In this document: positions 3,651-63,600 of the stretch, piece by piece
Position numbering within the stretch: the stretch's first letter is position 1
How the letters are laid out: every line of letters starts with the position of its first letter
Sequence record: NC_129898.1
Length of the DNA stretch: 64,000 bases
Direction: 5' to 3' (one strand)
From: a phage
Translations under genes and position numbers: made by a program
Notes under the pieces: model-generated
The model's database searches: none
What the model was told of the DNA's origin: nothing
What the model saw: the letters and a program-made list of their open reading frames with translations, nothing else

Positions 3651-4001
3651 TTACTGCAATAGTTTTTCAATAGCCGCTTCCATGCTGCTTGCAACAGCCT
3701 GAACTCGGATATTCATCTCTTCTTGGTGGATCAGCTCCTTAAGCTCTTTAATGGTAAATTCTTTAGAGAAACCTTCTACCATAATCTTGTGTAAGGCTTC
3801 TTGCGTGTCTACCTGCAAGAACTTTTCCAGTTTGTTGGCAGAGGCTTCTAAATCAGCCCGAATACGAGGGTCATCTGTGCGATTCAGCATCAGGCGTAAG
3901 CCATCAAGATTAGTAGAAATAGCGTCTGCATGTTGAGTAACTAATCGTGGCAAAATGAGATCTACAAACTTATTAGCCAAATCGATACGTTCTTGTGTCA
4001 C
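3651..4001 (-). CDS. hypothetical protein
   Basis: 116-aa ORF starting at GTG; its start overlaps the stop of the small upstream ORF. Confidence 0.45.
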   Translation of the reverse strand: MTQERIDLANKFVDLILPRLVTQHADAISTNLDGLRLMLNRTDDPRIRADLEASANKLEKFLQVDTQEALHKIMVEGFSKEFTIKELKELIHQEEMNIRVQAVASSMEAAIEKLLQ

Positions 4002-27129: not shown

Positions 27130-27684
27130 ATGAAATATTTTGTAACAAGCGATACACACTTTCTCCACCAGCGAGTCATGGAGTTTGATTCATGTCAAAA
27201 ACACAGATCTCAGTATGATCACAATCTTGACAGTATGAACGAAGGAATCATTGCAGAGTGGAACTCTGTTGTATCACCAGAAGACACTGTGTTTCACTTG
27301 GGCGATATTGCATGCACTAAGGATAAGAATATCAACAACTTATTTCCAGATATTCTAAATATGTTGAACGGACATATTATTCTTGTTCGTGGTAACCATG
27401 ACACAAGGACGACTGTCAGAATTATGAAAGAGTTCGGTAATGAGGTTGTAGATTATTACGAGCTTCGCCACAACAAGAATTTGATCTGTATGAGCCATTA
27501 CCAGTTTGCAAAGTGGAACAGAAAGCCTCACGGATCAGTCCAACTGTTCGGTCATGCTCACGGAACCACACAGCAGTTGTTTGGCAGGCAGTTTGATGTC
27601 GGTTGGGATGTGTGGGGGAGACTCTTACCATTAGAAGAGGCATACCGTATTGCAATGAGTCTTGCTATTGACAGCGGGGAGTAA
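27130..27684 (+). CDS. calcineurin-like metallophosphoesterase
   Basis: 'VTSDTHF', 'HLGDIA' and 'VRGNHD' metal-binding motifs. Confidence 0.8.
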   Translation: MKYFVTSDTHFLHQRVMEFDSCQKHRSQYDHNLDSMNEGIIAEWNSVVSPEDTVFHLGDIACTKDKNINNLFPDILNMLNGHIILVRGNHDTRTTVRIMKEFGNEVVDYYELRHNKNLICMSHYQFAKWNRKPHGSVQLFGHAHGTTQQLFGRQFDVGWDVWGRLLPLEEAYRIAMSLAIDSGE

Positions 27685-27731
27685 TCCCTGCTATTTTAAA
27701 GAAAATTGCCACACAAGGAGAATCAGGAGAT

Positions 27732-28082
27732 ATGAAAGAGGAGGATAAGCTGCCATACCTTAAAGTCCCATTTGGAATACTGTCTATGTCAAAAGTTTTG
27801 AATGATACAACTGGAGAGGTTGTTGTTCTTGACTTGTATGACAAGATCGTATACTGCTACCTGCACAACTGGTATAAGCTTGGAGGAAATTCACGCTTCA
27901 CACCCAGCACAAGGAAAATTGCAGCAGATGTTGGGATAAAGAAAACAAAAGCAGCAGCGTGCGTTAAAACTTTAGAATGTGCAGGAGTGGTTGAAATATC
28001 CACACAAGGGAGAGGTAAAAGATGCACATTTTCCAAAGTTTTGCCACCAGAAGAGGTTATTCGAATGTCAACAACTGGTTAG
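27732..28082 (+). CDS. putative winged-helix DNA-binding protein
   Basis: 'STRKIAADVGIKKTKAAACVKTLECAGVVEI' has an HTH-like pattern; immediately upstream of the iteron array. Confidence 0.45.
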   Translation: MKEEDKLPYLKVPFGILSMSKVLNDTTGEVVVLDLYDKIVYCYLHNWYKLGGNSRFTPSTRKIAADVGIKKTKAAACVKTLECAGVVEISTQGRGKRCTFSKVLPPEEVIRMSTTG

Positions 28083-28156
28083 ACCAGTAAAAACTTAAAT
28101 ATCTGTACTATAAGGATTCGTATGTTTTATGTCCATCCAAGAGCAGAGGGTAGTAA

Positions 28157-28238
28157 CTGTCCGTGATACGGACACTACTGTCCGTCACGCGGACACATCT
28201 GCCCGTAATACGGACACTAACTGTCCGCAATACGGACA
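28157..28238. repeat. four tandem 18-bp palindromic iterons (CTGTCCGT-NNN-ACGGACA)
   Basis: Copies at 28157-28174, 28178-28195, 28199-28216 and 28221-28238, spaced 21-22 bp start to start. Confidence 0.85.
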
Positions 28239-28380
28239 CATAAAGAATATAACTAAAATAACTAAATAATAAAAAAAAATAAAAGATCTAGTAATTATGG
28301 TACTAAAGTACATATACTTAACTTATGTAGAATATACTAGATCCTAAGTACCATGTTTTAAATTTATTACTTACTATTGG

Positions 28381-28705
28381 TAGTGTCGGCCCTTCATTGG
28401 CACTCGCCTACGAGGGGCGAGATGCCGGGCCTCCATAGTGCACACAATGACAGGAGTGCATACATGCAGGACTGTTAACATGTGTGGGAGCGAAGCTATA
28501 GCGCAGGCCAAAGGCCGAGCACTAATGTGGACCACCGACGAAAGCTTGCCAGCGCCGTAAGGAGTCGGTTGAGAGCCTCCCGCGCGAGTTTAGTTAAAGT
28601 TTATGTGTGGAAACGGACAGGAAGGCCCCTAAATCGCCACACAGCTGCGTAAACTATACCAAGTAAGGCAATCGCACCAGTTTGATAGAAAAGCTCGTTA
28701 CAAAG
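28381..28705 (+). ncRNA. candidate structured non-coding RNA, class unknown
   Basis: GC-rich ORF-free region with many local helices (GGCCC..GGGCC, CTCGCC/GGCGAG, GGCCaaaGGCC, CCGAC..GTCGG, TGTGTGG..CCACACA) and GNRA-like loops. Confidence 0.25.
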
Positions 28706-28746
28706 CGATACAGTGAGTTTTTCTATAACTTGAAGAGGAGGCAGTT

Positions 28747-29325
28747 ATGAGTTCACGCAAAGATGACCGCGAAAAGATTGCAAAACGTTATCAGAATGAA
28801 GAACAGATGGAGAAAACTTTCAAGTGGAAGCCAGGTTTCCAGCGTAATCATTCTAACGCTCGTGATCGTAAGCATCCGGATAAGTGGCTAACACCGCCAA
28901 ATGATGGCATGCAGGTTGGTGATGAGAAGGAGCTATCGCCTGGAAAAGATGGCAACTACATTCGCACTAAGGACGCTGGTCCAAAGGATGACAGCTATCT
29001 TGTAGATAAGGTTCTTGATGGTATTGATGTAGATGTTGACACCACACGGAACTTTTTTCTTGGGTGGTATCGCACAGGTTTTTTCGACATCAAGGCCATT
29101 CGTCGTGTTTGTGATATTAAAAAGTCTGCATATGATGACGACTCGTTACATCGCACCCTGAGGCAATATTCAGAAAGATATGGTCATCCGGTTATCACTC
29201 TTGACGATGTTGACGAAGTGATGTATCATGCAGAGGTTGTTGCAGGCAGATTTGGTGATGCATATCTTGATATCCTTTCTGCAAACGATGAGGTAATGTT
29301 GAATAAGATTTACTACGAACGTTGA
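28747..29325 (+). CDS. hypothetical protein
   Basis: 192-aa ORF with GAGGAGG RBS. Confidence 0.55.
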   Translation: MSSRKDDREKIAKRYQNEEQMEKTFKWKPGFQRNHSNARDRKHPDKWLTPPNDGMQVGDEKELSPGKDGNYIRTKDAGPKDDSYLVDKVLDGIDVDVDTTRNFFLGWYRTGFFDIKAIRRVCDIKKSAYDDDSLHRTLRQYSERYGHPVITLDDVDEVMYHAEVVAGRFGDAYLDILSANDEVMLNKIYYER

Positions 29326-29844: not shown

Positions 29845-30130
29845 GTTGTTTTCGTGTATCATGATGAATATCCAATTTAAAGATGAATTTGATGGCTTTA
29901 TCTCCGGATGCTTTGAAACAGGGTTCGGAGAATGCTGAGTTCCCATTAGAGGGCTTGATAGTGCACCACACTTAAAATGGTAGGGGCAGCCAGCACATGA
30001 CGATGTGACCCCAGCCAACCTGTAATAAGGTCGAGCCAAAGCGCGGTAATGGGTCTCTGGTAACCCACTTGTTGGGTCTTGTGGTCCAGGACGCTGGGCA
30101 AGTCGCAGGGAATACCACCCTGCGGCGAAC
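29845..30130 (+). ncRNA. candidate structured non-coding region, class unknown
   Basis: GC-rich; only overlapping multi-frame antisense ORFs; helices such as CGCAGGG-aatacca-CCCTGCG and GGGG..ACAT-gacg-ATGT..CCCC. Confidence 0.2.
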
Positions 30131-30159
30131 TTGACAATCAGTATTTGCCGTGATAAAAT
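30131..30159 (+). promoter_or_regulatory. sigma70 promoter (TTGACA-17-TAAAAT with TG extension)
   Basis: Near-consensus hexamers; the track ORF start at 30131 falls inside it, so the gene is started at 30188. Confidence 0.55.
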
Positions 30160-30827: not shown

Positions 30828-30915
30828 GGTGAGTTAATTCCGTAGGGGTAGCGGGGCAGACTGTAAATCTGTTATCATTGCGATTCGGGTGGTTCGACTC
30901 CATCACTCACCACCA
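30828..30915 (+). tRNA. tRNA-Tyr (anticodon GTA)
   Basis: Acceptor GGTGAGT/ACTCACC, anticodon arm CAGACTGTAAATCTG as in E. coli tRNA-Tyr, long variable arm, encoded CCA. Confidence 0.8.
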
Positions 30916-31218: not shown

Positions 31219-31315
31219 GCTAGGTAAGCCCTTTGGCAAGGGCGAGGATTTTTAATCCTGAAAATAGACGAGGTAGTCGTTGAATACATAGATGGTTCGA
31301 TTCCATCACCTAGCA
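31219..31315 (+). tRNA. tRNA-Lys-like (anticodon TTT) with atypically long variable region
   Basis: Acceptor GCTAGGT/ACCTAGC and anticodon arm GAGGA-TTTTTAA-TCCTG are canonical, but about 30 nt separate the anticodon stem from the T arm and CCA is not fully encoded. Confidence 0.4.
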
Positions 31316-31321
31316 CCTTTT

Positions 31322-32381: not shown

Positions 32382-32665
32382 GAGCCACCGTATTATTAGT
32401 TGCTTGCTTGCTTCTGTGCGGATGCGCGACAAGTGTCGAAAAAGAATATAAGATTGATCCTCCGGATGTGGGAAGATTGATTGTTAAACCGCCCGAAGGT
32501 GCTATGAAGCCTCCTGCTAAAGCTATACCTTTAAAGAAAGGTGCGCCTGATGCGGTGAATTCTGGCATTATGAGGGATAATAACCTGTCTTGCAGTAATG
32601 ATAGGGCTAAATTGATCATTTTGCAAGACTATATTAGAACACTGTTTCCAAAGGAGAGAGGTTAA
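32378..32665 (+). CDS. o-spanin (Rz1-like lipoprotein)
   Basis: Signal peptide with lipobox-like LLLCGC and proline-rich mature part; ATGA overlap with the i-spanin gene. Confidence 0.55.
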   Translation: MRATVLLVACLLLCGCATSVEKEYKIDPPDVGRLIVKPPEGAMKPPAKAIPLKKGAPDAVNSGIMRDNNLSCSNDRAKLIILQDYIRTLFPKERG

Positions 32666-34212
32666 TGTCTAAGATTTACGGACCGTGTTCTGAAAAGCAG
32701 AAGATGATCCTTGAAAACGATGCAGACATTCTTGTCATTGGTGGTGCGGCTGGTTCAGGTAAGTCGTTCCTCCTGCAGTTGATGCCGCTTAAAATTATTG
32801 ATGATCCGCACAGCTCTGTGGTTATGTTCCGAAGAACAACTCCACAGTTGGAAGGTGAGGGTGGGCTATGGCCTAAAGCAGTAGCTATTTACAGTGATCT
32901 GCCTGAAAACATTAAACCAAAGTTCAGAGAGAAGGATCATAAGTTTATTTTTCCACGGTTTGATCCGAGCACTGGCAAGTGGGACAGGAGCAAAAAAGGG
33001 GCCGTTGTAAAATACTGCCACATGGAGTATGTCCAAGATAAGCTTAACCATCAAGGCCTTGAGTACACCATGGTTTGCTTCGATGAAGGCACGCAATTCG
33101 AATGGGAGCAGATAGACTATTTGATGTCTCGTCTGCGATCTCAGTCAAAGTATCCATCAAGAATGGTTATCAGTTGTAACCCCGACTCAGAACACATGCT
33201 TGCCAAACTGGTTAGGTGGTGGTTGGACGATGAAGGGTATCCAGATCCGGAGAAATGTGGTAAGAAAAGATATTTTATCCGACGCGACGGTGAGTTTATC
33301 TGGGGAGACTCTAAAGAGGAGTTAATAGAGAAATACACCACGGTTAACGGACTGGGTGTGGAGATCAAGCCAAGACCGTTGTCATTCTCGTTTATAGGTG
33401 CAACAATTTTCGATAATCCTGTCTGCTTGAGAGACAACCCAGAATACCTTGCTTTCCTTGAAGGTCTACCAGAGCTTGAAAAAGCCCAGCTTCTTCATGG
33501 CAACTGGTTTGCCAAACCTGAGGGTGCAAACTATTTCCAAAGATCTTTCCTTCGTGATGCCGATAGAGTACCTCTTGGATCAGTATCTTGCAGGGCATGG
33601 GATAAGGCAGGAACCGAGAGAACTTCCGGTAATAAATTTCCTGACTTTACTGCCAGTGTTAAGGTAAGTAAAGATAGCGACGGTTTTTATTACCTGTCCG
33701 GGGATTATTGTCCTGAGAACGTGGATGACGGTAGGTATTCCACAGGTCTGGAAGGTAAGTTCTGTAAAAAGGCTGGGGAACGAGATGTGATCATCAGGAA
33801 ACAGGCGCAGTTTGATGGAGATGATTGCATAATCGTATTTTCTGTGGACCCCGGTCAGGCAGGTAAGAGTGAGTTCTTAACCTCGTCCAGATCCTTGCTC
33901 GCCGAAGGGTTCAGGGTTGAAGAAGATCCGATGCCTTCCAACAAATCTAAACTGACAAGGTTCTCACCTTTTGCCAATCTTGCCCAACAAGGAATGGTGA
34001 GGATTGTAAAATCCAGTTTCCATCCTGACACTCTGGAAGCATTTTTGACTGAACTTGAAAAGTTCAACGGGGAAAGATCAACATTTAACAGAAAAGACGA
34101 CTGGGCCGACTGTGTAGCTTCTGCGATTAATTTCCTGGAGAAAGAGGAGGTAGCGCTGCCTTGTGTTATTCCATCAATCTCATCACCTTCTATGTTCAAG
34201 CGTTTTATCTAA
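32665..34212 (+). CDS. terminase large subunit
   Basis: Walker A 'GGAAGSGKS', Walker B 'MVCFDEGTQ', C-terminal nuclease-like region. Confidence 0.9.
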   Translation: MSKIYGPCSEKQKMILENDADILVIGGAAGSGKSFLLQLMPLKIIDDPHSSVVMFRRTTPQLEGEGGLWPKAVAIYSDLPENIKPKFREKDHKFIFPRFDPSTGKWDRSKKGAVVKYCHMEYVQDKLNHQGLEYTMVCFDEGTQFEWEQIDYLMSRLRSQSKYPSRMVISCNPDSEHMLAKLVRWWLDDEGYPDPEKCGKKRYFIRRDGEFIWGDSKEELIEKYTTVNGLGVEIKPRPLSFSFIGATIFDNPVCLRDNPEYLAFLEGLPELEKAQLLHGNWFAKPEGANYFQRSFLRDADRVPLGSVSCRAWDKAGTERTSGNKFPDFTASVKVSKDSDGFYYLSGDYCPENVDDGRYSTGLEGKFCKKAGERDVIIRKQAQFDGDDCIIVFSVDPGQAGKSEFLTSSRSLLAEGFRVEEDPMPSNKSKLTRFSPFANLAQQGMVRIVKSSFHPDTLEAFLTELEKFNGERSTFNRKDDWADCVASAINFLEKEEVALPCVIPSISSPSMFKRFI

Positions 34213-57200: not shown

Positions 57201-58647
57201 ACAGCAGATGGCTGGTACGCTGATCGTGCTTAGAAACTCTGCCAACGAGGGTACAGGGTGTGTCCAGATATATAAAATGTATCTTGGAGGAACGTGGGAA
57301 AGGTACTATAATAACACTGGCAGCGGAATGAACTGGAGCCCTTGGAAGAGAACGAGCTTCCCAGAAAGTACAACTGCCCCAGTCATGCCTGACCTGTGGT
57401 TGCCTTTAACCTCTAATCTAAAACCTGTACTAGGTGAAGGTGAGATGGTGTTCTCCAGACCTTCTACAGCAACATATTTCACTAAGCGCGGTGTCATGGC
57501 TGTTGCACAGGCAAACCAACCACGTTTCGAAAGAGATGGTCTGCTCATTGAAGGTCAAAGGACAAATCTGATGCTTAATAGTGAGGACCCGAGCAAGTGG
57601 GGGGCAAGTCAACAGATCACTGTTGGCAACACTGTAACAAACACTAACGGAACAAAAGGTGCAAGATTTACAGTAAACACCATATCCGGTGTAGAAACAA
57701 CGGCGTTAAACCTGGCTACAGTTCCAGCCACTCGGGGTGCAGATGTGACAGGTGATGAGAAATTTTGTACTGGATCTATTATTGCAAGAGGTGGTAAAGC
57801 TCACCAGAGACTGCGTGTAAGATTCGACATGTATAACGGATCCACCACAGTATTCCAGGGTGATGCCTATGTTAACCTGTCAACACTTGAAGTTAAAACA
57901 ACAGGTGGTGCAGCTGGGAGAATTAAAGTAAAAGCTGAGAGATGGCAAACAGCCGGACCTGCTTGGATAAGGGTTGTTGCTACGTTTGAGGCAGCGGCCT
58001 CTGACATGAATATTGGGTGCCAGTTCCAGATTTCACCACCGGAGGGTTCTCAACATGCCGTAGGGGATTGGATTGACGTCGCAATACCTCAGTTTGAGTT
58101 AGGATCTTGTGAGTCCTCGTTTATCCCTACAGGGTCTTCACCAGTGACTAGGGCAGCAGACCTTTGTAAATTCCCAATGACTGATAATTTAGCACCTAGA
58201 CCGTTCACCATCGCCGCTACGGTGGATGCCAACTGGAGAGGTTGGGGAAAAGCTCCTAACGCAGCTCCTAGGGTTATTGATACAGAGCTCCATCAATCCG
58301 GTGCTGCATTTATCATGGGTTTTGGCTCTTCAGCAAATATTGCAGATGATGGTTACCCATATTGCGATATTGGCGGTTCAAACAGACGTGTCTATGAGAT
58401 GGCTAAAACACGTAAATTGAAGATTGGGTTCAGGATAAAAGATGACGGTAAAACCTGCTCTTTTGCTAACGGATTGGTAAGTACGGAAACGCAATCTTCT
58501 TGGGAATTCCTGGCAGGAGGCGCTTTCATCCGTATCGGTGGGCAAACCGCAACTGGTGAAAGACATTTGTTTGGTCATATCAAGGATATAAGGGTTTGGA
58601 ACTCTGCACTGACCGACACCCAGCTTATGATGGAGAGTGTTGAATAA
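54208..58647 (+). CDS. large tail fibre protein
   Basis: 1479 aa; N-terminal anchor domain shared with 50905-51573; two paralogous internal modules. Confidence 0.7.
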   Translation: MADIKVVRIESLPATTAVAEDDYLVVQQPDLTRRVKIGDVVHIDGTVSHVISFKEGGKLNGPMDFAYFEEEDLYLRWKGEFPHTVPALSSPYADGGITDAAWMVYTDPSLREELESTIGASMIMTAEGQSVQDVMDVTVQTANDAKALAQRVDFGTVHTVGDVIHLVNFVGPAVIEEGRTTNYPSEAAGEKFLNGVVSRRDTTTVDGIFRGATSGAMYTIAVTNGVATTKRIALRDEFKRLEANNPTRTVIRAGDDLNTAGYLQLDATGRWGMWNQQTASWQPLAIEQGGTGARDAAGVRINIGAFYKQRAALEANFNINNLTGNQDGIYYQPMTANATEENGYPAGSGAGHLIVWQNNANGGTGCRQEYYPFSNVDVWYLRTYQANTNQWTAWQPMVRPRNDDTFRSHIGLGKNNSPAFGHLYLAQYSGDVKSASGILHGDKYNTDGVLEHGYRIYSEVRNDNKAWLTIHLHKGAKGSETHRYLGFREDGVLDCPKYMQVGDLTGQLTNWGLGEWIRSSGAERGFWGSKKAAKMVVWDGGMDESGNGTLEWGVYNNRKAKWEPLPQAAGGTGATTLADAQNLFKVPIAAGVKDFLTLPRTAGMEDGKYYPIIVRTDPYYAPATGTDITLVTRSSSGGDPMNCATLQCHYRTGGWTDRGDSFYGVVNFYQNEKALLGMVAPTRGKQEYVAFYAEARAFPVSIYASRNVVEVFTREQDYQVGSVTNNQDGVKFVAPLQSADLNLAVLGDNNTNTRPIVDFKGTSGFYTGGGTQWHYIGTAERYAVMSKMNMPKVELWADGIDYLCYGSPRKALFSNAGFQCASDGTDDLTNGTFTSKCGNGAGLQGQAEFRSTPEAGQVIVRDVVGSAHRFYNFNKDGTFSAPGGFVCHTGADWNNQFGNNNPSKILAGNVNGPEGSMVVGGLSVAFSGNYAFQMAGRLDQLYTRSIEQGNHRAWNKVIQHRGQGLGTSDLNDYKADREGIYHQEANANATAERHYPPGQQMAGTLIVLRNSANEGTGCVQIYKMYLGGTWERYYNNTGSGMNWSPWKRTSFPESTTAPVMPDLWLPLTSNLKPVLGEGEMVFSRPSTATYFTKRGVMAVAQANQPRFERDGLLIEGQRTNLMLNSEDPSKWGASQQITVGNTVTNTNGTKGARFTVNTISGVETTALNLATVPATRGADVTGDEKFCTGSIIARGGKAHQRLRVRFDMYNGSTTVFQGDAYVNLSTLEVKTTGGAAGRIKVKAERWQTAGPAWIRVVATFEAAASDMNIGCQFQISPPEGSQHAVGDWIDVAIPQFELGSCESSFIPTGSSPVTRAADLCKFPMTDNLAPRPFTIAATVDANWRGWGKAPNAAPRVIDTELHQSGAAFIMGFGSSANIADDGYPYCDIGGSNRRVYEMAKTRKLKIGFRIKDDGKTCSFANGLVSTETQSSWEFLAGGAFIRIGGQTATGERHLFGHIKDIRVWNSALTDTQLMMESVE

Positions 58648-58979
58648 TGAATACTTTTACCCTTTGGTTCACTGGCAGGGAGGATTTTAACGGTTTCATG
58701 GACGAAATCGGCTTTTACGAGAACGAGGTGTTGCAAAACACCCTTCTTGTAGAGGTTGTCGGGTTCATTTACACAGAAACTGAAGACACTTATGAGGCCG
58801 AGGACGAGTTTGGCAACATGGTTGTCTACCCAGTTTGCGAGAAAAGTAAATTGTTTTATGTCAACGTTCTGGCTCTGGACGAGGATGCAGAAAACATCGT
58901 CTCGAAAAGCGGAAAAGTTGTAGATCCGATAAGGTTGAACATGTTCGACCAATCAGTATCTACCTTGGAAGCACTTTAA
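58647..58979 (+). CDS. putative tail fibre assembly/chaperone protein
   Basis: 110-aa acidic ORF overlapping the fibre stop (ATGA). Confidence 0.4.
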   Translation: MNTFTLWFTGREDFNGFMDEIGFYENEVLQNTLLVEVVGFIYTETEDTYEAEDEFGNMVVYPVCEKSKLFYVNVLALDEDAENIVSKSGKVVDPIRLNMFDQSVSTLEAL

Positions 58980-58985
58980 AGTATT

Positions 58986-59014
58986 GCCCTCGCTTCGGCG
59001 GGGGCTTTTTGTTT
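58986..59014 (+). terminator. rho-independent terminator
   Basis: GCCCTCGC-ttcg-GCGGGGGC hairpin followed by TTTTTGTTTG. Confidence 0.6.
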
Positions 59015-59076
59015 GTATTGCGTATTAACTTAAAATCTGGTAAAATAACTACCATAATTGTTAACCGGGAGGCACA

Positions 59077-59667
59077 ATGTTTTTATGGGAAAGGCCTAGA
59101 TACCTTCCAGACATTAGACTGGAGCTACTGGCAGACATCGTTACATTTAAAAGCCCGTTTACAGGTAAGACGCAAAAAGTCACCTATGCCACGCCTAACT
59201 GGAAGGGCACTTTGACGGTTTCCAATATCAGCGAGTCTCAGTTGTTGGAGCTTAAAAGTTTTGTTGATCAGGTTTACAAAGATGGAAATATTTTTCTTAT
59301 CAAGGCTTATGGGCATTCAGTTACCTCCAACGAGCCAATCGCTCTTGGACCAACCGGTAACGACGATTTTTTGAAGACGGTTGGTTGGGAGCCTAACAGG
59401 GATATAGCCAGAGCTGGGGATAAAATATCTGTCAATGATGAGTTGAAAGTGGTGACAGCCTCAGTACGAAGTGATGGTGTTGGGGCCGCTGTTATAAACA
59501 TATCTCCAAGACTTAGGAAACCTATTGCCGCAGGGGATACCATGAAGATAATAACTCAATCTCCGAAGGGTAGATTTCATATCAGGGATCTTTATAAAAT
59601 TAAGCAAAAGGTTGATGCTATGCAGAAAGGTGACAATATAGTTATCAACTTCTTTGAGGATTTCTAA
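59077..59667 (+). CDS. minor tail protein
   Basis: 196-aa ORF with GGGAGG RBS. Confidence 0.45.
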   Translation: MFLWERPRYLPDIRLELLADIVTFKSPFTGKTQKVTYATPNWKGTLTVSNISESQLLELKSFVDQVYKDGNIFLIKAYGHSVTSNEPIALGPTGNDDFLKTVGWEPNRDIARAGDKISVNDELKVVTASVRSDGVGAAVINISPRLRKPIAAGDTMKIITQSPKGRFHIRDLYKIKQKVDAMQKGDNIVINFFEDF

Positions 59668-60220
59668 GATGATAAGAGCGCCATTAGATAATTTATTTCT
59701 TGAAAAGCTAGAGCTTGATGGTGTTGAGATCTTAATTGCTGCAAAGCTAGAGCTGCCAACAGGGACTGTCAGGGTGTGCTCAGGAACTGGTGTTGTGGTG
59801 ATTGAGGGGCAACATTTTATAGGGATAGGTGGATCAGCAACATTGACTGCTGTGTCTGAGAAAGATGCCACCAACTTCGGATCTGTGGTAGCAACATTGA
59901 ACGGGTTTGATCCTAAATATGTTGGCGATCTACTGAAGACGGAGTACTCTGGTTGCCGTGCCACGTTATATATCACCGCTATGGAGAATGGTTTACCTGT
60001 CACAACTAATGGCTTGTTTGACGGCCTTATAACAGACATGGCTATTCAGACAGGGGAGAATAGTGCTCTGTCCATATCCATCTCTTCCATCTTCAACAGC
60101 TGGTTAAGAGGTTTTCCTTATCGATACACAGAGGAAAGCCATAGTTCAAGAAACGATAATGACAGATTTTTTAAATATGTAGATCAGGTGGCGAGCCGCC
60201 CGATCATTTGGGAGGTTTAA
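59654..60220 (+). CDS. minor tail protein
   Basis: 188-aa ORF overlapping its neighbours. Confidence 0.45.
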   Translation: MRISKMIRAPLDNLFLEKLELDGVEILIAAKLELPTGTVRVCSGTGVVVIEGQHFIGIGGSATLTAVSEKDATNFGSVVATLNGFDPKYVGDLLKTEYSGCRATLYITAMENGLPVTTNGLFDGLITDMAIQTGENSALSISISSIFNSWLRGFPYRYTEESHSSRNDNDRFFKYVDQVASRPIIWEV

Positions 60221-60645
60221 TGAGCACACATCCTCGTTTAGTAGACTGGCAAGAAAGGTTGTGGAAAGTATTTGACGAAGAAGCCACCGTCCCGTTTGAA
60301 TGGGGATTCCACGATTGTTGCACTTTTGCTGCTAAGTGTGTTGATGCCCAATACGGAACAGATTTTCTTTCTAACTTTGAAGGAACGTATAAAACAGAGT
60401 TGGAAAGCAAGAGATGGTGCATGCTTCGTTTCAAAACCACACACCTGCCTACTGTTTTTGATCTCTTTTTGACTCGACTGGATACTCCTAAACAGGTCCA
60501 GCGTGGTGATATTGTTATTTTCGAAGGTCTGAACGGCCTCACCGCTGGTGTGTTTTGGAACAACCTGATTTGGGCGAAAGGTGATAAAGGGATCTTTACG
60601 TTCGATATGAAAGATTCTATCGTTGTTGATGTCTGGAGGTATTAA
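60208..60645 (+). CDS. minor tail protein, possible NlpC/P60-like peptidase fold
   Basis: 'GFHDCCTF' Cys-containing motif with downstream His; weak. Confidence 0.35.
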   Translation: MGGLMSTHPRLVDWQERLWKVFDEEATVPFEWGFHDCCTFAAKCVDAQYGTDFLSNFEGTYKTELESKRWCMLRFKTTHLPTVFDLFLTRLDTPKQVQRGDIVIFEGLNGLTAGVFWNNLIWAKGDKGIFTFDMKDSIVVDVWRY

Positions 60646-63600
60646 TGCCAATTGCAATGATTGATAACATCGTTGCTTCTGCAAGATCTTCAAGTTATGA
60701 CTGGAACGCATCCAAGGCAGCTCTGGCTGACAGCCTGAACACTGTTACCACCAGAACTCTGGATAAGATTTTCGAGGGCAACAAATCTTACAGAAGTCAG
60801 CAAGATAGACAAAAGCTTCTCAGATCTTCTGCTGCACCTTGCTCTGTAGTATATGGAAAGACACGCACATCTGGATTGCTTGCGTTTTTGGAGCAGGACA
60901 GGGACAGAACCCTTCATTGTGCTATTGTTCTTGCTAATCATCCCTTGGAAGGCATAGAAGATATACTTATCGACGGTAATCCTATTTCTTCGTATGGCGA
61001 TTTGGTATCGTGGGAGTTACATAACGACAGGAAAACCTCTGATCCTTTCATGGGCACACACTGCCCTTCATGGTCACCAGACATGATAGGCAGAGGGATC
61101 AGTTGGCTACGTGCCAGCTTCAAGTTTGACCCCAACAAGTTTCCTTTTGGGTTGCCAAACGTTACACTCGTCAAGGTTGGTAAAAAATGTTATGATCCTC
61201 GTATCAGTAAGGAGGTGTATACCAATAACGCTGCCTTGGTGATTCTGGACTACCTAAGAACGTACCTCAAATGTCCCGACGAAACTATCAACTGGGAGTC
61301 CTTCAAGGAAGCTGCCAACATATGTGACGAAGCTGTAAGAAACGCAGACGGAACCAGTGAGCGTCGTTACACCATTAATGGTGAGTTTGACATGGATGAA
61401 GCACCAGCAAGTATTATGGCAGAAATGCTGAAAGCTTGTGGTGCAGATCTTAGCTATGTAGCTGGTAAATATGGTCTGCTGGTAGGTGCATACTATGGCC
61501 CGGCAACAATGACACTGAGTGAGGACTGTGTTTGCGGTGAGGTTAAGATCTATCCGGAAGCCTCCTTCGATAAAAGATCGAACACAATAACTGGCAGATT
61601 CACCAGTCCAACCAAAGGGTATTCTGAAACAGACTTCCCATCGGTGTTCGTACCTGAGTGGGTAGAGAAGGATGGAGAAAGAAAGATAATTGATATAGAT
61701 TATCGTTTTGTTACCAGTCCTTATCAAGCTCAGCGTGTTTCCGCAATATTCTTAAGACGTGCCAGAGCTGGCAGGATTATTGAAGTAACCTGCAATATGC
61801 GGGGTTTTAAATTTAAGCCTGGGCGTTACGTTACGATGGACCTTCCAAGTATTGGTATAGTGGGCCAAGAAATGAGGGTTCTTGAATGGGAGTTCACCAA
61901 AAAGGGCGGTGTCAAGGTAAAACTCCGTCAAGATGCTAAAGAGTGGAATGATGCCACAGGGCAACTTCCAGACTCTGGAGATGTAAATATTCCGATATCT
62001 CCATCTGGTGTAGCTCAACCGCAAAACTTCAGATACTCTGTTCTTCAAGCCGGGGAAGTAACTCACGGTGTTTTGGCTTGGGACAACGTTGGGACTTATG
62101 CTCAAAACATTGTGCAGGTAAGAAAGAACGGAGAGATTATTTGGACAGCACAAACAGTCGAGCAGTTTGTCCGCGTAGAGGGATTGACCAAAGGGTCATA
62201 CACAGCAACCGTGGTTGCAACATCTTATAAAGGTGGTGTATCTCCAGAAGCGTACTGCGAGTTTAACATTCAGGCACCTGAAGCCCCGGTTTCTGTAGAA
62301 GTTAAGCAGGGATACTTTGCTATCACCCTGATTCCGCACAGCAGGGACTTAGCAAGTGTAAGCACCCAGTATGACTTTTGGACATCTGGTATGACAAGGT
62401 TGCCGGACACAAGTGATGCAACCGTTACTTCAAAAGCCACCCGCATGGGTGTTGGTTCAACTTGGACATCTGAAGGTCTGCAGAACGATAAGATTTATTA
62501 TTGGTATATTCGAACCACAAATGCTTTTGGTAGTTCTCAGTTTGTAGAGTGTGCTGCACGCTGCTATACCTCCATTGAAGATTTGATGCCTCAGATAGAT
62601 GCTGAATTTAAAAAGACAGAAACTTATAAAGAGTTGATGAGCACTTTAGATTCCTCTATTGAAGAGGTTGAAAATCGTGTCACAGAACTTAACAAGTACA
62701 TGGACGGAAGGGTAGATGAGGCATTCCAACAACTTGGGGATAGGATAGGTGCTGTAGTTACAGAGACAACTCAGAAGTTTGAGGATGTCAATGGCAATAT
62801 CACAGCGCTGGATAAGAAACTTGTTGCTGCACAGAACAAGTTCACCAACGATCTGAACACTGAAAGTGGAAGACTGGCATCCCTGATTGAGACAACCAAT
62901 AAAGCAACCACTGATCTTCTGAACAAAAAGACAGAGGCTTTAGATGAGAAATTGGTTGCAGCCAAAGGGGAGTTGGTAGAACAAATAGGTGGAGTGGAGA
63001 GCGGATACCTTGCCGGAGATAAAACTCTGGATGGCAAGATCAATACCCAGAGAACAGAACTTGACGCAAGCATCTTGAGCACCAATAAGGCGACAGTGGA
63101 TCTTCTTAACAGGACCTCTGAAACTCTGGATCAAAAGATCAGTCAGACAAACGCGACGGTATCTAAGAACTATACCACCCTTGACGGTAAGATAACTACC
63201 GCAAAAACTGATCTCAATACCTTGATTGCCAATACCAACAAGGCCACCACAGATTTGTTGAATCAGAAAACCTCCGCACTGTCGGAGCAGATAACTTCTG
63301 CACGTGGGGAGATTTCTACCAACAAACAGGCGATTGCGGATTTGGATGGTAAGCTGACCTCCACAAAAACAGTACTGGACGCTACAATCTCCGATACCAA
63401 CAAAGCAACTGTGGATCTTATTAACGGCACAGCGTCAGCTATTCGTCAAGAACTTGCTGTTGCTAAGCAGGAGATCATTGATGATGTTGGGGATGTATCA
63501 GAGCTAAGAGCTGCAGTGGCTACAACATCTAAGGCTGTGACCGACTTAGAGGGCAAAGTAAATGCTCAATGGGGCACAAAAATACAGGTAGACTCCGCAG

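What the first reader, a model, noticed from the sequence alone, without database searches (positions are those of the whole stretch)
28083..28380. Four tandem palindromic iterons plus an AT-rich tract after a winged-helix gene: candidate origin or operator array
Four near-identical 18-bp palindromes (CTGTCCGT-NNN-ACGGACA) at 28157-28238 are spaced 21-22 bp apart, about two helical turns, which would put dimeric binding sites on the same DNA face. They are followed by about 140 bp of AT-rich DNA with short direct and inverted repeats, and preceded by a small gene with an HTH-like segment (27732-28082). That is the classic iteron-plus-unwinding-element layout of a replication origin or partition site, or else a cooperative operator array. 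Neither is expected at this spot from the flanking gene content.
Basis: seen in the sequence. Interest (0 to 1): 0.65.

Follow-up and report, generated by a model that had tools for sequence, protein, structure and literature searches.

The report
Candidate replication origin in rV5-like phage
Just after a small DNA-binding gene, this E. coli phage (rV5/FV3 group) carries four evenly spaced palindromic repeats next to the easiest-to-melt DNA in its genome, and the gene's nearest characterised relative is the repeat-binding domain of a proven replication initiator, so this is most likely the phage's still-unmapped replication origin, though a transcriptional operator is not excluded.

Summary
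Four TGTCCG-N5-CGGACA palindromes lie at 28158-28238, spaced 21/21/22 bp (4 found at up to 1 mismatch, 0.05 expected). They occur nowhere else in the window or in the complete rV5 genome. The adjoining tract (28240-28362) is the least stable 100-bp duplex in the window (z about 5.9) and in rV5 (z 5.6). Iteron half-sites and AT tract are 4-10 times more conserved than synonymous sites, between hypervariable linkers.

Sister genera show the same layout with different proteins and repeats. In Erwinia phage Hena1 the tract is again the genome's least stable 100 bp and lies about 42 kb from the terminal repeats.

Best reading (about 0.5): a lambda/RepA_N-style iteron-plus-unwinding origin with an unusually small, single-domain initiator. 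Main rival (about 0.28): an operator array. No binding or replication data exist. The rV5 genome paper could not locate an origin.

The parts
27668..27697 (+). Sigma-70 promoter of the winged-helix gene (TTGACA, 18-nt spacer, TATTTT, with a TG extended -10)
   Evidence: Consensus scan, 10 of 12 matches. Annotated as promoter P76 at the equivalent place in rV5. The surrounding intergenic stretch is highly conserved, pi 0.015. Transcription from here would run through the gene into the iterons, because no terminator is predicted.
27732..28082 (+). Gene for a 116-aa single-domain winged-helix protein (rV5 gp075 homologue); proposed iteron-binding initiator
28133..28153 (.). Hypervariable linker marking the 5' edge of the module
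   Evidence: pi 0.36, with 16 of 21 sites variable among 14 phages, against 0.10-0.13 at third codon positions.
28158..28174 (.). Iteron 1, TGTCCGTGATACGGACA
   Evidence: Absent in phage nomo.
28179..28195 (.). Iteron 2, TGTCCGTCACGCGGACA
28200..28216 (.). Iteron 3, TGCCCGTAATACGGACA (one half-site mismatch, shared by most relatives)
28222..28238 (.). Iteron 4, TGTCCGCAATACGGACA, abutting the AT tract
   Evidence: The junction CGGACAC/ATAAAG is invariant in all relatives whatever the copy number.
28240..28362 (.). AT-rich tract, proposed DNA-unwinding element. It contains tandem ATAACTAAA (28249-28266), an A-run (28270-28284) and two interleaved inverted-repeat pairs (28285-93 with 28335-43; 28297-304 with 28347-54).
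   Evidence: Least stable 100 bp of the window, z about 5.9, and of the complete rV5 genome, z 5.6; most AT-rich 100 bp of rV5. pi 0.026, which is 4-5 times lower than third codon positions. No sigma-70 promoter or terminator predicted.
28276..28288 (-). GATCTTTTATTTT, a perfect match to the E. coli oriC 13-mer consensus GATCTnTTnTTTT (consensus taken from established knowledge)
   Evidence: The only perfect match in the window. This is weak evidence: 2.9 matches at up to 1 mismatch are expected by chance, GATC and AGATCT are over-represented genome-wide, and the match is not conserved in sister genera.
28363..28383 (.). Variable junction marking the 3' edge of the module
   Evidence: pi 0.15, with 10 of 21 sites variable.
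28384..28700 (+). Adjacent GC-rich conserved non-coding block (candidate structured RNA). It always travels with the module; its functional link to the module is unknown.
   Evidence: 55% GC. pi 0.060 with no codon periodicity. The block, the iteron/AT region and the gene each match 118 phage records. No Rfam family. RNAalifold gives 93 pairs, including one compensatory UA-to-CG change in the closing helix.

Best explanation
Proposal: the segment 28154-28362 is an iteron-type origin of replication of Vequintavirus phages, and the gene just upstream (27732-28082) encodes its origin-binding protein.

Proposed mechanism, with each step marked as shown or inferred:
1. Host RNA polymerase transcribes the winged-helix gene early from its own strong sigma-70 promoter. 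The promoter is shown by sequence; the timing is inferred.
2. Dimers of the 116-aa protein bind the two to four TGTCCG-N5-CGGACA palindromes. These are spaced about two helical turns apart, so the dimers would sit on one face of the DNA and form a small nucleoprotein array like the lambda O-some or the RepA_N-iteron complexes. This is inferred from homology to the PLE RepA N-terminal domain and from the genus-by-genus co-variation of protein and repeats.
3. The strain of this array, together with negative supercoiling and transcription reading through from the upstream promoter, opens the adjoining tract, which is the least stable duplex of the genome. The low stability is shown; the opening is inferred.
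4. The protein has no second domain, so the phage's own enzymes would have to enter the bubble either without a dedicated recruiting domain or through the protein's short C-terminal tail. The candidates are the T7-gp4-like primase-helicase, the Pif1/SF1B helicase and the T7-like DNA polymerase. This step is speculative and is modelled on the SF1B-helicase dependence of PLE RepA.

The protein may also act as a transcriptional brake on downstream genes, as plasmid Rep proteins act on their own promoters.
For: 1. The array is real, unique and non-random: 4 sites against 0.05 expected, and no other site with 0-1 mismatch in the 137,947-bp rV5 genome.

2. The flanking tract is the least stable 100 bp in the window, at -100.4 against -133.5 +/- 5.6 kcal/mol, and in the complete rV5 genome, z 5.6.

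3. Selection acts on the DNA itself. Half-sites have pi 0.012, spacers and linkers 0.050, and the AT tract 0.026, against 0.10-0.13 at third codon positions. Hypervariable edges (0.36 and 0.15) delimit a module of about 210 bp.

5. The layout matches lambda ori, which has four 19-bp imperfect inverted-repeat iterons flanked by an AT-rich tract. There, two iterons plus the AT tract suffice for unwinding (PMC7466680). This fits the natural variation from 4 to 2 copies seen here, always with the AT-proximal junction kept.

6. Independent replication in other genera. Seunavirus, Mydovirus and Henunavirus phages have a different small winged-helix protein of the same family (BLASTP 4e-6; DUF6945/HTH_36; PHROG 8102 at 4e-35) next to different repeats, followed by an A-rich tract. 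In all four further viral contigs the tract is the least stable 100 bp of the locus, z 4.9-5.2. In the complete Hena1 genome the three palindromes are unique and the tract is the least stable 100 bp of 148.8 kb, z 4.9.

7. No sigma-70 promoter or intrinsic terminator is predicted anywhere between 28083 and 28746, either by my scan or in the authors' tables. A conventional operator would therefore have nothing obvious to control.

8. The locus lies 1.5 kb from the divergent-transcription switch. Active T4 origins also lie near such switches (PMC3016281).
Against: There are no experimental data on binding, unwinding or replication for any member.

The protein is only the DNA-binding domain. It lacks the C-terminal domain that lambda O, RepA_N and PLE RepA have, and all relatives found are equally short, 104-121 aa. 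How a replisome would be recruited is therefore unexplained.

Beyond 4ro3, sequence profiles hit ordinary MarR/SlyA-type repressors and not RepA_N. Pfam RepA_N itself is not hit.

In the sister genera the repeats sit upstream of the small gene's start, where its own promoter should lie, in a divergent intergenic region. That is what an autoregulated repressor looks like, and promoter regions are AT-rich anyway.

The EspYZU12 homologue also weakly hits a PRTase-associated winged-helix family and heads an NAD-salvage operon.

The module is far from the replisome genes, about 62 kb away in rV5.

GC skew is uninformative because it tracks transcription (PMC3606486); the Hena1 global minimum lies elsewhere.

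There are no DnaA boxes nearby.

Copy number is not fixed, varying from 2 to 4.
Confidence: 0.5

Rival explanations
1. Operator array. The winged-helix protein is an ordinary phage transcription factor, and the four palindromes are its cooperative operators. Bound dimers would either block RNA polymerase reading through from the upstream promoter into the GC-rich RNA block, gp073 and the tRNA cluster (a roadblock or feedback brake), or activate or repress an unrecognised phage-specific promoter in the AT tract.

For: The protein is a single domain with no replication-specific part.

In Hena1 the homologous repeats flank and follow the small gene's own TTGACA-type promoter; in EspYZU12 and KpS11 they lie just upstream of its start codon, where no promoter was read. 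That is the classic layout for autoregulation.

The array lies between two co-oriented transcription units with no terminator. A structured RNA candidate begins right after the tract.

Most GenBank records call the protein 'putative transcriptional regulator'.
Against: No promoter is predicted within 28083-28746 by two independent scans. The only plausible -10 element near the start of the GC block is not conserved.

No copy or half-site of the palindrome occurs at the gene's own promoter in Vequintavirus.

The hypothesis does not explain why the adjoining tract is the least stable duplex of the whole genome, and strongly conserved, when it is not a divergent promoter region.

The nearest characterised homologue is an initiator and not a repressor.

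The two roles are not mutually exclusive, since plasmid Rep proteins perform both.
Confidence: 0.28
2. RNA-level element. The palindromes act in the transcript as four tandem 6-7-bp hairpins in the 3' untranslated region of the winged-helix mRNA. They would stabilise it against 3' exonucleases or serve as processing sites, in the manner of bacterial REP/BIME elements.
For: The array is almost certainly transcribed: there is a strong promoter upstream and no terminator. Each unit can form a short G+C-rich hairpin. The array lies immediately 3' of a gene.
Against: Natural variants break the pairing rather than compensate for it. TGTCCG changes to TGCCCG, giving a C-A mismatch, in iteron 3 of most phages and in iteron 2 of phiWec193. 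No compensatory pair was seen.

Conservation is concentrated on the 6-nt half-sites with free spacers, which is the signature of a protein-binding site.

The hypothesis does not explain the co-variation of repeats with the adjacent protein across genera. In Hena1 two of the three repeats lie upstream of the presumed -35 of the small gene's promoter and would not be transcribed with it; in EspYZU12 and KpS11 the repeats lie between the A-rich tract and the start codon, where no promoter was mapped.
Confidence: 0.05
3. Packaging (pac) or partition site. The small winged-helix protein would be a small-terminase-like or centromere-binding protein, and the repeats its recognition site.
For: rV5 is reported to be circularly permuted, which implies headful packaging from a pac site (PMC3606486). 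No small terminase is annotated, and the large terminase gene lies 4.5 kb downstream on the same strand. Some small terminases use winged-helix domains (established knowledge). One assembly (A141) is linearised exactly at iteron 1.
Against: No terminase or ParB family is hit in Pfam, PHROGs or the fold searches.

The model shows only a winged helix, with no oligomerisation domain.

In Hena1, which has mapped 519-bp direct terminal repeats, the homologous module lies about 42 kb from the ends.

These are virulent phages, for which no plasmid state is known.

The A141 break is most simply an assembler artefact at a repeat.
Confidence: 0.04

Closest known systems
Vibrio cholerae PLE satellite replicon (RepA and its ori iterons; PDB 4RO3; Barth et al. 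2020, PMC7145576)
   Different: PLE RepA has an additional C-terminal domain, and the phage protein stops after the DNA-binding domain. PLE iterons have 13-bp inverted arms converging on a poly-A centre, whereas here the arms are 6-7 bp around a mixed 3-5-nt spacer. PLE is a satellite, while this is the genome of a virulent phage. Binding and replication are demonstrated for PLE and for nothing here.
Bacteriophage lambda ori and O protein
   Same: Both have four iterons of about 18-19 bp, each an imperfect inverted repeat bound by a dimeric winged-helix domain, followed on one side by an AT-rich unwinding tract. Both are transcribed through from an upstream early promoter. In lambda two iterons plus the AT tract suffice (PMC7466680), which parallels the natural variants here with 2 to 4 copies.
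   Different: Lambda ori lies inside the O gene, between its two domains. O has a C-terminal domain that recruits P-DnaB. There is no detectable sequence similarity to O, only weak hits to O-like PHROGs. The phage here brings its own T7-like replisome and does not use host DnaB.
RepA_N plasmid initiators of Gram-positive bacteria (pSK41, pTZ2162; PDB 4pql, 4pt7, 4pta, 5kbj)
   Different: Pfam RepA_N is not hit and the sequence E-value is about 1. There is no genus-specific C-terminal domain. The iterons lie outside the gene rather than within it, and they have no central poly-A.
Phage T4 oriE with its iterons and RepEA/RepEB (PMC3016281)
   Same: Both are in a large virulent myovirus. Both have a cluster of evenly spaced repeats near a transcription-divergence point, small early proteins implicated, and an unproven role for the repeats.
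   Different: The T4 repeats are 12-nt direct repeats and not palindromes. No homology between the proteins was tested or is evident. T4 origins work through R-loops.
Iteron plasmids (pSC101, R6K, P1, F; review PMC4980987)
   Same: The order AT-rich tract, iterons, rep gene, seen in the sister genera, is the standard plasmid arrangement. The Rep protein doubles as an autorepressor.
   Different: Plasmid Rep proteins have two winged-helix domains and use DnaA boxes and host DnaB/DnaC. Here there are no DnaA boxes and the protein has a single domain.

Membership tests
PLE RepA-NTD-like winged helix (Pfam DUF6945; PDB 4RO3) | Significant sequence similarity to the domain | tested here: met
   phmmer to 4ro3 1.8e-6 over residues 13-90; profile 9.2e-8. 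Pfam DUF6945 scores 27.1 bits, just below the 28-bit cut-off, E 4.6e-6.
PLE RepA-NTD-like winged helix (Pfam DUF6945; PDB 4RO3) | Same fold over the full domain, including the N-terminal beta-hairpin and helix ahead of the winged-helix core | tested here: met
RepA_N replication initiators (Pfam PF06970) | Match to the RepA_N N-terminal domain model | tested here: not met
RepA_N replication initiators (Pfam PF06970) | Second, host-specific C-terminal domain | tested here: not met
   The protein ends at residue 116, right after the wing. All relatives found are 104-121 aa. The downstream gene gp073 has no detectable similarity to anything.
RepA_N replication initiators (Pfam PF06970) | Semi-palindromic direct-repeat iterons converging on a poly-A centre, at or in the rep gene | tested here: inconclusive
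   Semi-palindromic direct repeats lie 75 bp after the gene, so that part is met. The centres are GAT, CAC and AAT and not poly-A, and the array is outside the coding sequence. Criteria are taken from PMC7145576.
Iteron-type replication origin (lambda ori / plasmid oriV kind) | Cluster of repeated initiator-binding sites, unique in the replicon | tested here: met
   Four sites against 0.05 expected. They are the only ones in the whole rV5 genome. Half-sites are under strong purifying selection.
Iteron-type replication origin (lambda ori / plasmid oriV kind) | Adjacent easily melted AT-rich DNA-unwinding element | tested here: met
   Least stable 100 bp of the window and of rV5, z 5.6-5.9. The same holds in Hena1, z 4.9, and in four further loci. 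Actual unwinding was not tested.
Iteron-type replication origin (lambda ori / plasmid oriV kind) | The cognate initiator binds the repeats | not testable with these tools
   Inferred only, from adjacency, from homology to an iteron-binding domain, and from the co-variation of protein and repeat sequence across four genera.
Iteron-type replication origin (lambda ori / plasmid oriV kind) | Replication actually starts there, or the fragment confers replication | not testable with these tools
   No replication-mapping data for any Vequintavirinae phage were found. The rV5 authors could not define an origin.
Operator of a phage repressor or activator | Binding sites overlap or adjoin a promoter that they control | tested here: not met
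   In this window no promoter is predicted between 28083 and 28746, and there is no palindrome at the gene's own promoter. In Hena1 the feature is met by reading the sequence; in EspYZU12 and KpS11 the repeats lie just upstream of the small gene's start, but no promoter was identified there. Phage-specific promoters cannot be excluded.
Small terminase / pac site | Terminase small-subunit domain or oligomerisation core; site at the start of the packaging series | tested here: not met
   No terminase family is hit in Pfam, PHROGs or the fold searches. The Hena1 module lies about 42 kb from the mapped terminal repeats. Packaging starts in Vequintavirus itself were not testable.

The most novel reading that the evidence does not exclude
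Across the Vequintavirinae, replication of a genome of about 140 kb from a virulent phage would be started by a minimal initiator of about 105-120 aa. This initiator is only the RepA_N/PLE-RepA-type DNA-binding domain and has no recruiting domain. It would act purely by remodelling two to four iterons next to the genome's weakest duplex. The phage's own Pif1/SF1B helicase and T7-like primase-helicase would then enter the opened DNA.

This would make these phage proteins the natural source of the N-terminal domain of the PLE satellite's RepA. It would also give a simple system for the open question of how RepA_N-type initiators work.

The conserved structured RNA candidate that starts at the edge of the tract (28384-28700) might be part of the same device, for example as a primer or regulatory transcript.
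Probability: 0.3. Interest if true: 0.65.

Novelty: new member of a known kind. Interest (0 to 1): 0.5.

Why it matters
rV5-like phages (Vequintavirus) are widely used in E. coli O157 biocontrol and in phage-therapy collections, yet their origin of replication has never been located. The rV5 genome paper tried skew analysis and found only transcription switches.

This module is a concrete, cheaply testable candidate: a fragment of about 210 bp plus one 116-aa protein. If confirmed, it would do the following:
- Map the origin for a whole phage subfamily.
- Give a minimal model for RepA_N/PLE-RepA-type initiation, whose mechanism is still unknown.
- Link a phage-satellite initiator to phage-encoded relatives.
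- Provide a handle for engineering these phages, for example conditional replication or origin-based plasmids amplified on infection.

If the module turns out to be an operator, it would still define the DNA target of a conserved early regulator.

The work also corrects annotation. ORFs called across the iterons and in the GC-rich block are probably not genes. The RefSeq name 'replication initiation protein' now has some evidence behind it, although it remains unproven.

Tried and rejected
GC skew as origin evidence. The global cumulative minimum in rV5 lies less than 2 kb from the array. However, the minima simply follow divergent transcription, as the rV5 authors noted, and in Hena1 the global minimum is at another switch. 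I treated this as uninformative.

oriC-like motifs. A perfect 13-mer GATCTTTTATTTT is present, but the chance expectation is not negligible, GATC and AGATCT are over-represented genome-wide, and the motif is not kept in sister genera. I gave it minor weight. There are no DnaA boxes within several kb and no IHF consensus in 27900-28800.

Promoters. Neither my scan nor the published tables find a sigma-70 or 'late' (TGGTAAAATA-type) promoter in the module. The TGGTACT elements resemble extended -10 boxes but lack the conserved final T, and the TACTAT near 28372 is not conserved.

Coding ORFs across the repeats. The 46-aa ORF at 28129-28269 would be frameshifted by the 22-bp and 43-bp copy-number deletions.

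Split initiator. I tested whether the downstream gene gp073 (28747-29325) could be the missing C-terminal domain. It has no Pfam, NCBIfam or PDB hit and no similarity to the gene that follows the module in sister genera, so the idea is unsupported.

Small terminase or pac site, and partition. Both were rejected as described under the rival explanations.

Distant homologues. An exhaustive HMMER search finds essentially one cluster plus marginal HTH_36/DUF6945 proteins, and the word-based search finds only near-identical proteins. No informative multi-domain relative was found.

Syntenic locus. In sister genera the phosphoesterase is followed directly by RNA ligase and there is no module at that position. 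The analogous module sits instead in their divergent intergenic region.

Half-sites against spacers within the array. The half-sites have 3 of 48 variable sites and the spacers and linkers 6 of 38. The trend is right but not significant on its own.

Rfam for the GC-rich block. Nothing was found; the best hit was rli43 at 18.8 bits against a cut-off of 100. The single-sequence fold z-score is only -1.5.

A search of viral contigs with the mixed alignment failed because no stretch was conserved enough. With the sister-family alignment it returned only four loci.
Full report
WHAT THE WINDOW IS. The 4 kb around the finding is 99.6% identical to Escherichia phage EPFV3-03/2025 and 98% identical to phage FV3. 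It is 90-97% identical to well over a hundred rV5-like phages of the genus Vequintavirus, which are virulent myoviruses with genomes of about 137 kb. The gene order here is: Sir2, a small gene and RNA ligase on the minus strand. A divergent switch follows at about 26.65 kb. Then come polynucleotide kinase, phosphoesterase, the 116-aa gene, a 660-bp non-coding stretch, three small genes, a tRNA cluster, the spanins and the large terminase, all on the plus strand.

CHECK OF THE OBSERVATION. The sequence shows four units of 21-22 bp whose cores are TGTCCG-N5-CGGACA, at 28158-74, 28179-95, 28200-16 (TGCCCG in the left arm) and 28222-38. At up to one mismatch the window holds exactly these four, against 0.05 expected from shuffles. 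In the whole rV5 genome the only sites with 0-1 mismatch are the same four.

The 120-140 bp that follow are 80-90% A+T. They form the least stable 100-bp duplex of the window, at -100.4 kcal/mol against -133.5 +/- 5.6, and of the complete rV5 genome, z 5.6. The tract contains a tandem ATAACTAAA, an A-run and two interleaved inverted-repeat pairs.

THE MODULE IS UNDER SELECTION AND HAS SHARP EDGES. I aligned 14 Vequintavirus sequences, 12 GenBank phages and 2 metagenome contigs.
- Third codon positions of the flanking genes have nucleotide diversity 0.10-0.13.
- The iteron half-sites have 0.012 and their spacers and linkers 0.050.
- The AT tract has 0.026.
- The 21 bp just before iteron 1 (28133-53) reach 0.36, and the 21 bp after the tract (28363-83) reach 0.15.

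So 28154-28362 behaves as a discrete functional DNA element. Copy number varies in register: most phages have four, nomo and FFH2 have three, YN3 has two, and one metagenome contig carries a hybrid copy. The junction between the last iteron and the tract (CGGACAC/ATAAAG) never changes. These deletions of 21, 22 or 43 bp would frameshift the 46-aa ORF that some records annotate across the repeats, so that ORF is not a gene.

THE ADJACENT PROTEIN. The 116-aa product has its own strong sigma-70 promoter at 27668-97, which is P76 of the rV5 annotation. Its variation pattern is that of a coding sequence.

It is nearly an orphan. An exhaustive HMMER search of 1.8 billion representatives finds one cluster plus a few marginal HTH_36/DUF6945 proteins. 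Pfam gives DUF6945 and HTH_36 just under threshold. PHROGs places it in family 12838, named 'replication initiation protein', with weak hits to other initiator families.

Barth et al. (PMC7145576) identify 4RO3 as the N-terminal domain of RepA of the Vibrio cholerae satellite PLE. They show that RepA binds the semi-palindromic 'repeat 3' iterons of the PLE origin, and that both the protein and the iterons are required for PLE replication during ICP1 infection. The nearest characterised relative of the protein in this window is therefore the iteron-binding domain of a proven initiator.

The difference is that the phage protein is that domain alone. It has no C-terminal domain, and every relative recovered is 104-121 aa.

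COMPARATIVE EVIDENCE. The gene, the iteron/AT region and the GC-rich block that follows each match 118 phage records, all of them E. coli-type Vequintavirus; I did not check that the three record sets are identical. At the syntenic position in sister genera there is no such module.

Those genera do, however, have a different small winged-helix protein of the same family. The evidence is BLASTP 4e-6 against the window protein, DUF6945 and HTH_36 hits, and PHROG 8102 'replication initiation protein' at 4e-35 or PHROG 8453. Its gene starts at their divergent intergenic region, and next to it lie genus-specific repeats:
- two AGCCTaTGCTCAAATTGA units 23 bp apart in Seunavirus and Mydovirus;
- three TTATTCCCnnTCGGGTATA palindromes in Henunavirus.

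In each case an A-rich tract follows. In four further viral contigs of this group, that tract is the least stable 100 bp of the 8.3-kb locus, z 4.9-5.2.

In the complete Hena1 genome the palindromes occur only there, and the tract is the least stable 100 bp of 148.8 kb (z 4.9, tied with one other site). The module lies about 42 kb from the annotated 519-bp terminal repeats.

So protein and repeats change together from genus to genus while the architecture stays the same. This is what is expected if the protein binds the neighbouring repeats and the weak duplex beside them matters.

INTERPRETATION. The layout is four dimer-sized palindromes at about two helical turns, then an unwinding-prone tract, next to the gene of a RepA-NTD-like protein, and transcribed through from an early promoter. 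This is the layout of lambda ori, where two iterons plus the AT tract suffice for unwinding (PMC7466680), and of RepA_N and PLE origins. T4 offers a precedent for iterons at an origin of a large virulent myovirus, near a transcription-divergence point (PMC3016281).

I therefore rate an iteron-type origin of replication as the best explanation, at about 0.5. The steps that are shown are:
- the uniqueness of the array, its spacing and the selection acting on it;
- the extreme duplex instability of the tract;
- the fold and homology of the protein;
- the absence of predicted promoters or terminators in the 660-bp gap.

The steps that are inferred are binding, opening, and above all how a single-domain protein would hand the opened DNA to the phage's T7-like primase-helicase and polymerase. 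The dependence of PLE RepA on an SF1B helicase, together with the Pif1-type helicase of rV5 and Hena1, suggests one route. That is speculation.

THE MAIN RIVAL. An ordinary operator array remains credible, at about 0.28, for these reasons:
- The fold is shared with MarR-type repressors, which are the next profile hits.
- The protein has no replication-specific part.
- In Hena1 the repeats flank and follow the small gene's own promoter; in EspYZU12 and KpS11 they sit just upstream of its start. AT-rich DNA is expected in such regions anyway.
- The EspYZU12 protein also weakly resembles a PRTase-associated winged helix and heads an NAD-salvage operon.

In Vequintavirus itself there is no promoter for the array to control. 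A roadblock to read-through, or a phage-specific promoter feeding the structured-RNA candidate at 28384-28700, cannot be excluded. The two roles may coexist, as they do for plasmid Rep proteins.

An RNA-hairpin role, a pac site and a partition site have little support. Details are under the rival explanations.

WHAT IS KNOWN AND WHAT IS NEW. Several GenBank records mark the array as an unexplained 'repeat_region'. RefSeq calls the gene 'replication initiation protein', while most other records say 'putative transcriptional regulator'. I found no paper that describes the repeats, connects them to the gene, or maps an origin in any member of the subfamily. The rV5 genome paper states that skew analysis revealed only transcription switches.

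The finding is thus a new, undescribed member of a well-known kind of element. Its unusual feature is a domain-minimal initiator. It is not a member of RepA_N proper: that Pfam model is not hit and the C-terminal domain is absent.

LIMITS. Everything rests on sequence, predicted structure and comparison. GC skew, the oriC-like 13-mer and the GATC sites carry little weight. The first structure model was only moderate, although two models and two search methods agree. Divergence within Vequintavirus is small (5-10%), so the selection argument depends on contrasts within one alignment. The experiments listed under next steps, above all early-infection marker-frequency sequencing and EMSA, would settle the matter quickly.

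Noticed in passing
window 28384-28700 (+): A GC-rich (about 55%) conserved non-coding block starts exactly where the AT tract ends. It has pi 0.060 with no codon periodicity and no Rfam family. The RNAalifold consensus has 93 pairs, including a closing helix (28381-91 with 28513-24) that carries one UA-to-CG compensatory change in three phages. An 18-nt deletion in rV5 and Murica still leaves a hairpin. The ORFs annotated here (rV5 gp074, BASEL bas59_0201 and 0202) are probably spurious. It is a candidate novel structured RNA, and it matches the same number of phage records (118) as the iteron module.
   Followed up: partly
window 29900-30150 (+): A second conserved (pi 0.038), GC-rich (53%) non-coding block without codon periodicity. 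Its fold z-score is -1.9. It ends just before a sigma-70 promoter, which is rV5 P74. It may be another stable RNA upstream of the tRNA cluster.
   Followed up: partly
window 28133-28153 and 28363-28383: Two 21-bp stretches bracketing the module are far more variable (pi 0.36 and 0.15) than synonymous sites (0.10-0.13). These are local hot spots of substitution or recombination at the edges of a conserved element, and I have no explanation for them.
   Followed up: no
window 28129-28269 (+): A 46-aa ORF running through the iterons is annotated as a hypothetical protein in BASEL phages. The natural 22-bp and 43-bp copy-number deletions would frameshift it, so it is an annotation artefact.
   Followed up: yes
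GenBank MG0656xx records (hits H23, H24, H28, H30, H31, H33, H145 and others): Eighteen records named 'Campylobacter phage' are about 95% identical to E. coli rV5-like phages, so the host label looks doubtful. One of them (A141, MG065672) is linearised exactly at the first base of iteron unit 1 (window 28154), probably because the assembler broke at the repeat.
   Followed up: no
window 31219-31317 (+) and 30828-30912 (+): The first is an over-long (97-99 nt) tRNA-like gene for which ARAGORN calls a four-base anticodon; Rfam tRNA scores it 37.5 bits, and relatives name it tRNA-OTHER or tRNA-Lys. The second is a tRNA seen only by Rfam (39 bits).
   Followed up: no
rV5 genome, L014 4013-6618 (record 104,013-106,618): A 2.6-kb ORF-free region at a convergent transcription switch contains the second least stable 100-bp window of the rV5 genome (105,964; z 4.0). 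It could be a second origin, a terminus or an RNA locus, and should be watched in any replication-mapping experiment.
   Followed up: no
L015 1454-1726, L016 1489-1764, L017 1678-1948, L027-L030 about 3680-4000: Sister genera (Seunavirus, Mydovirus, Henunavirus) carry an analogous module in their divergent intergenic region. It consists of a small DUF6945/HTH_36 winged-helix gene, two or three genus-specific repeats, and an A-rich tract that is the locally or genome-wide least stable duplex. The EspYZU12 protein also weakly hits Pfam 'wHTH-PRTase associated' and heads an NAD-salvage operon.
   Followed up: partly
window 32665-34212 compared with rV5 record 58027-60872: The large terminase gene is a single uninterrupted 515-codon ORF in this window. 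In rV5 it is annotated as joined from three pieces with an HNH endonuclease gene inside, so intron or intein content varies within the genus.
   Followed up: no
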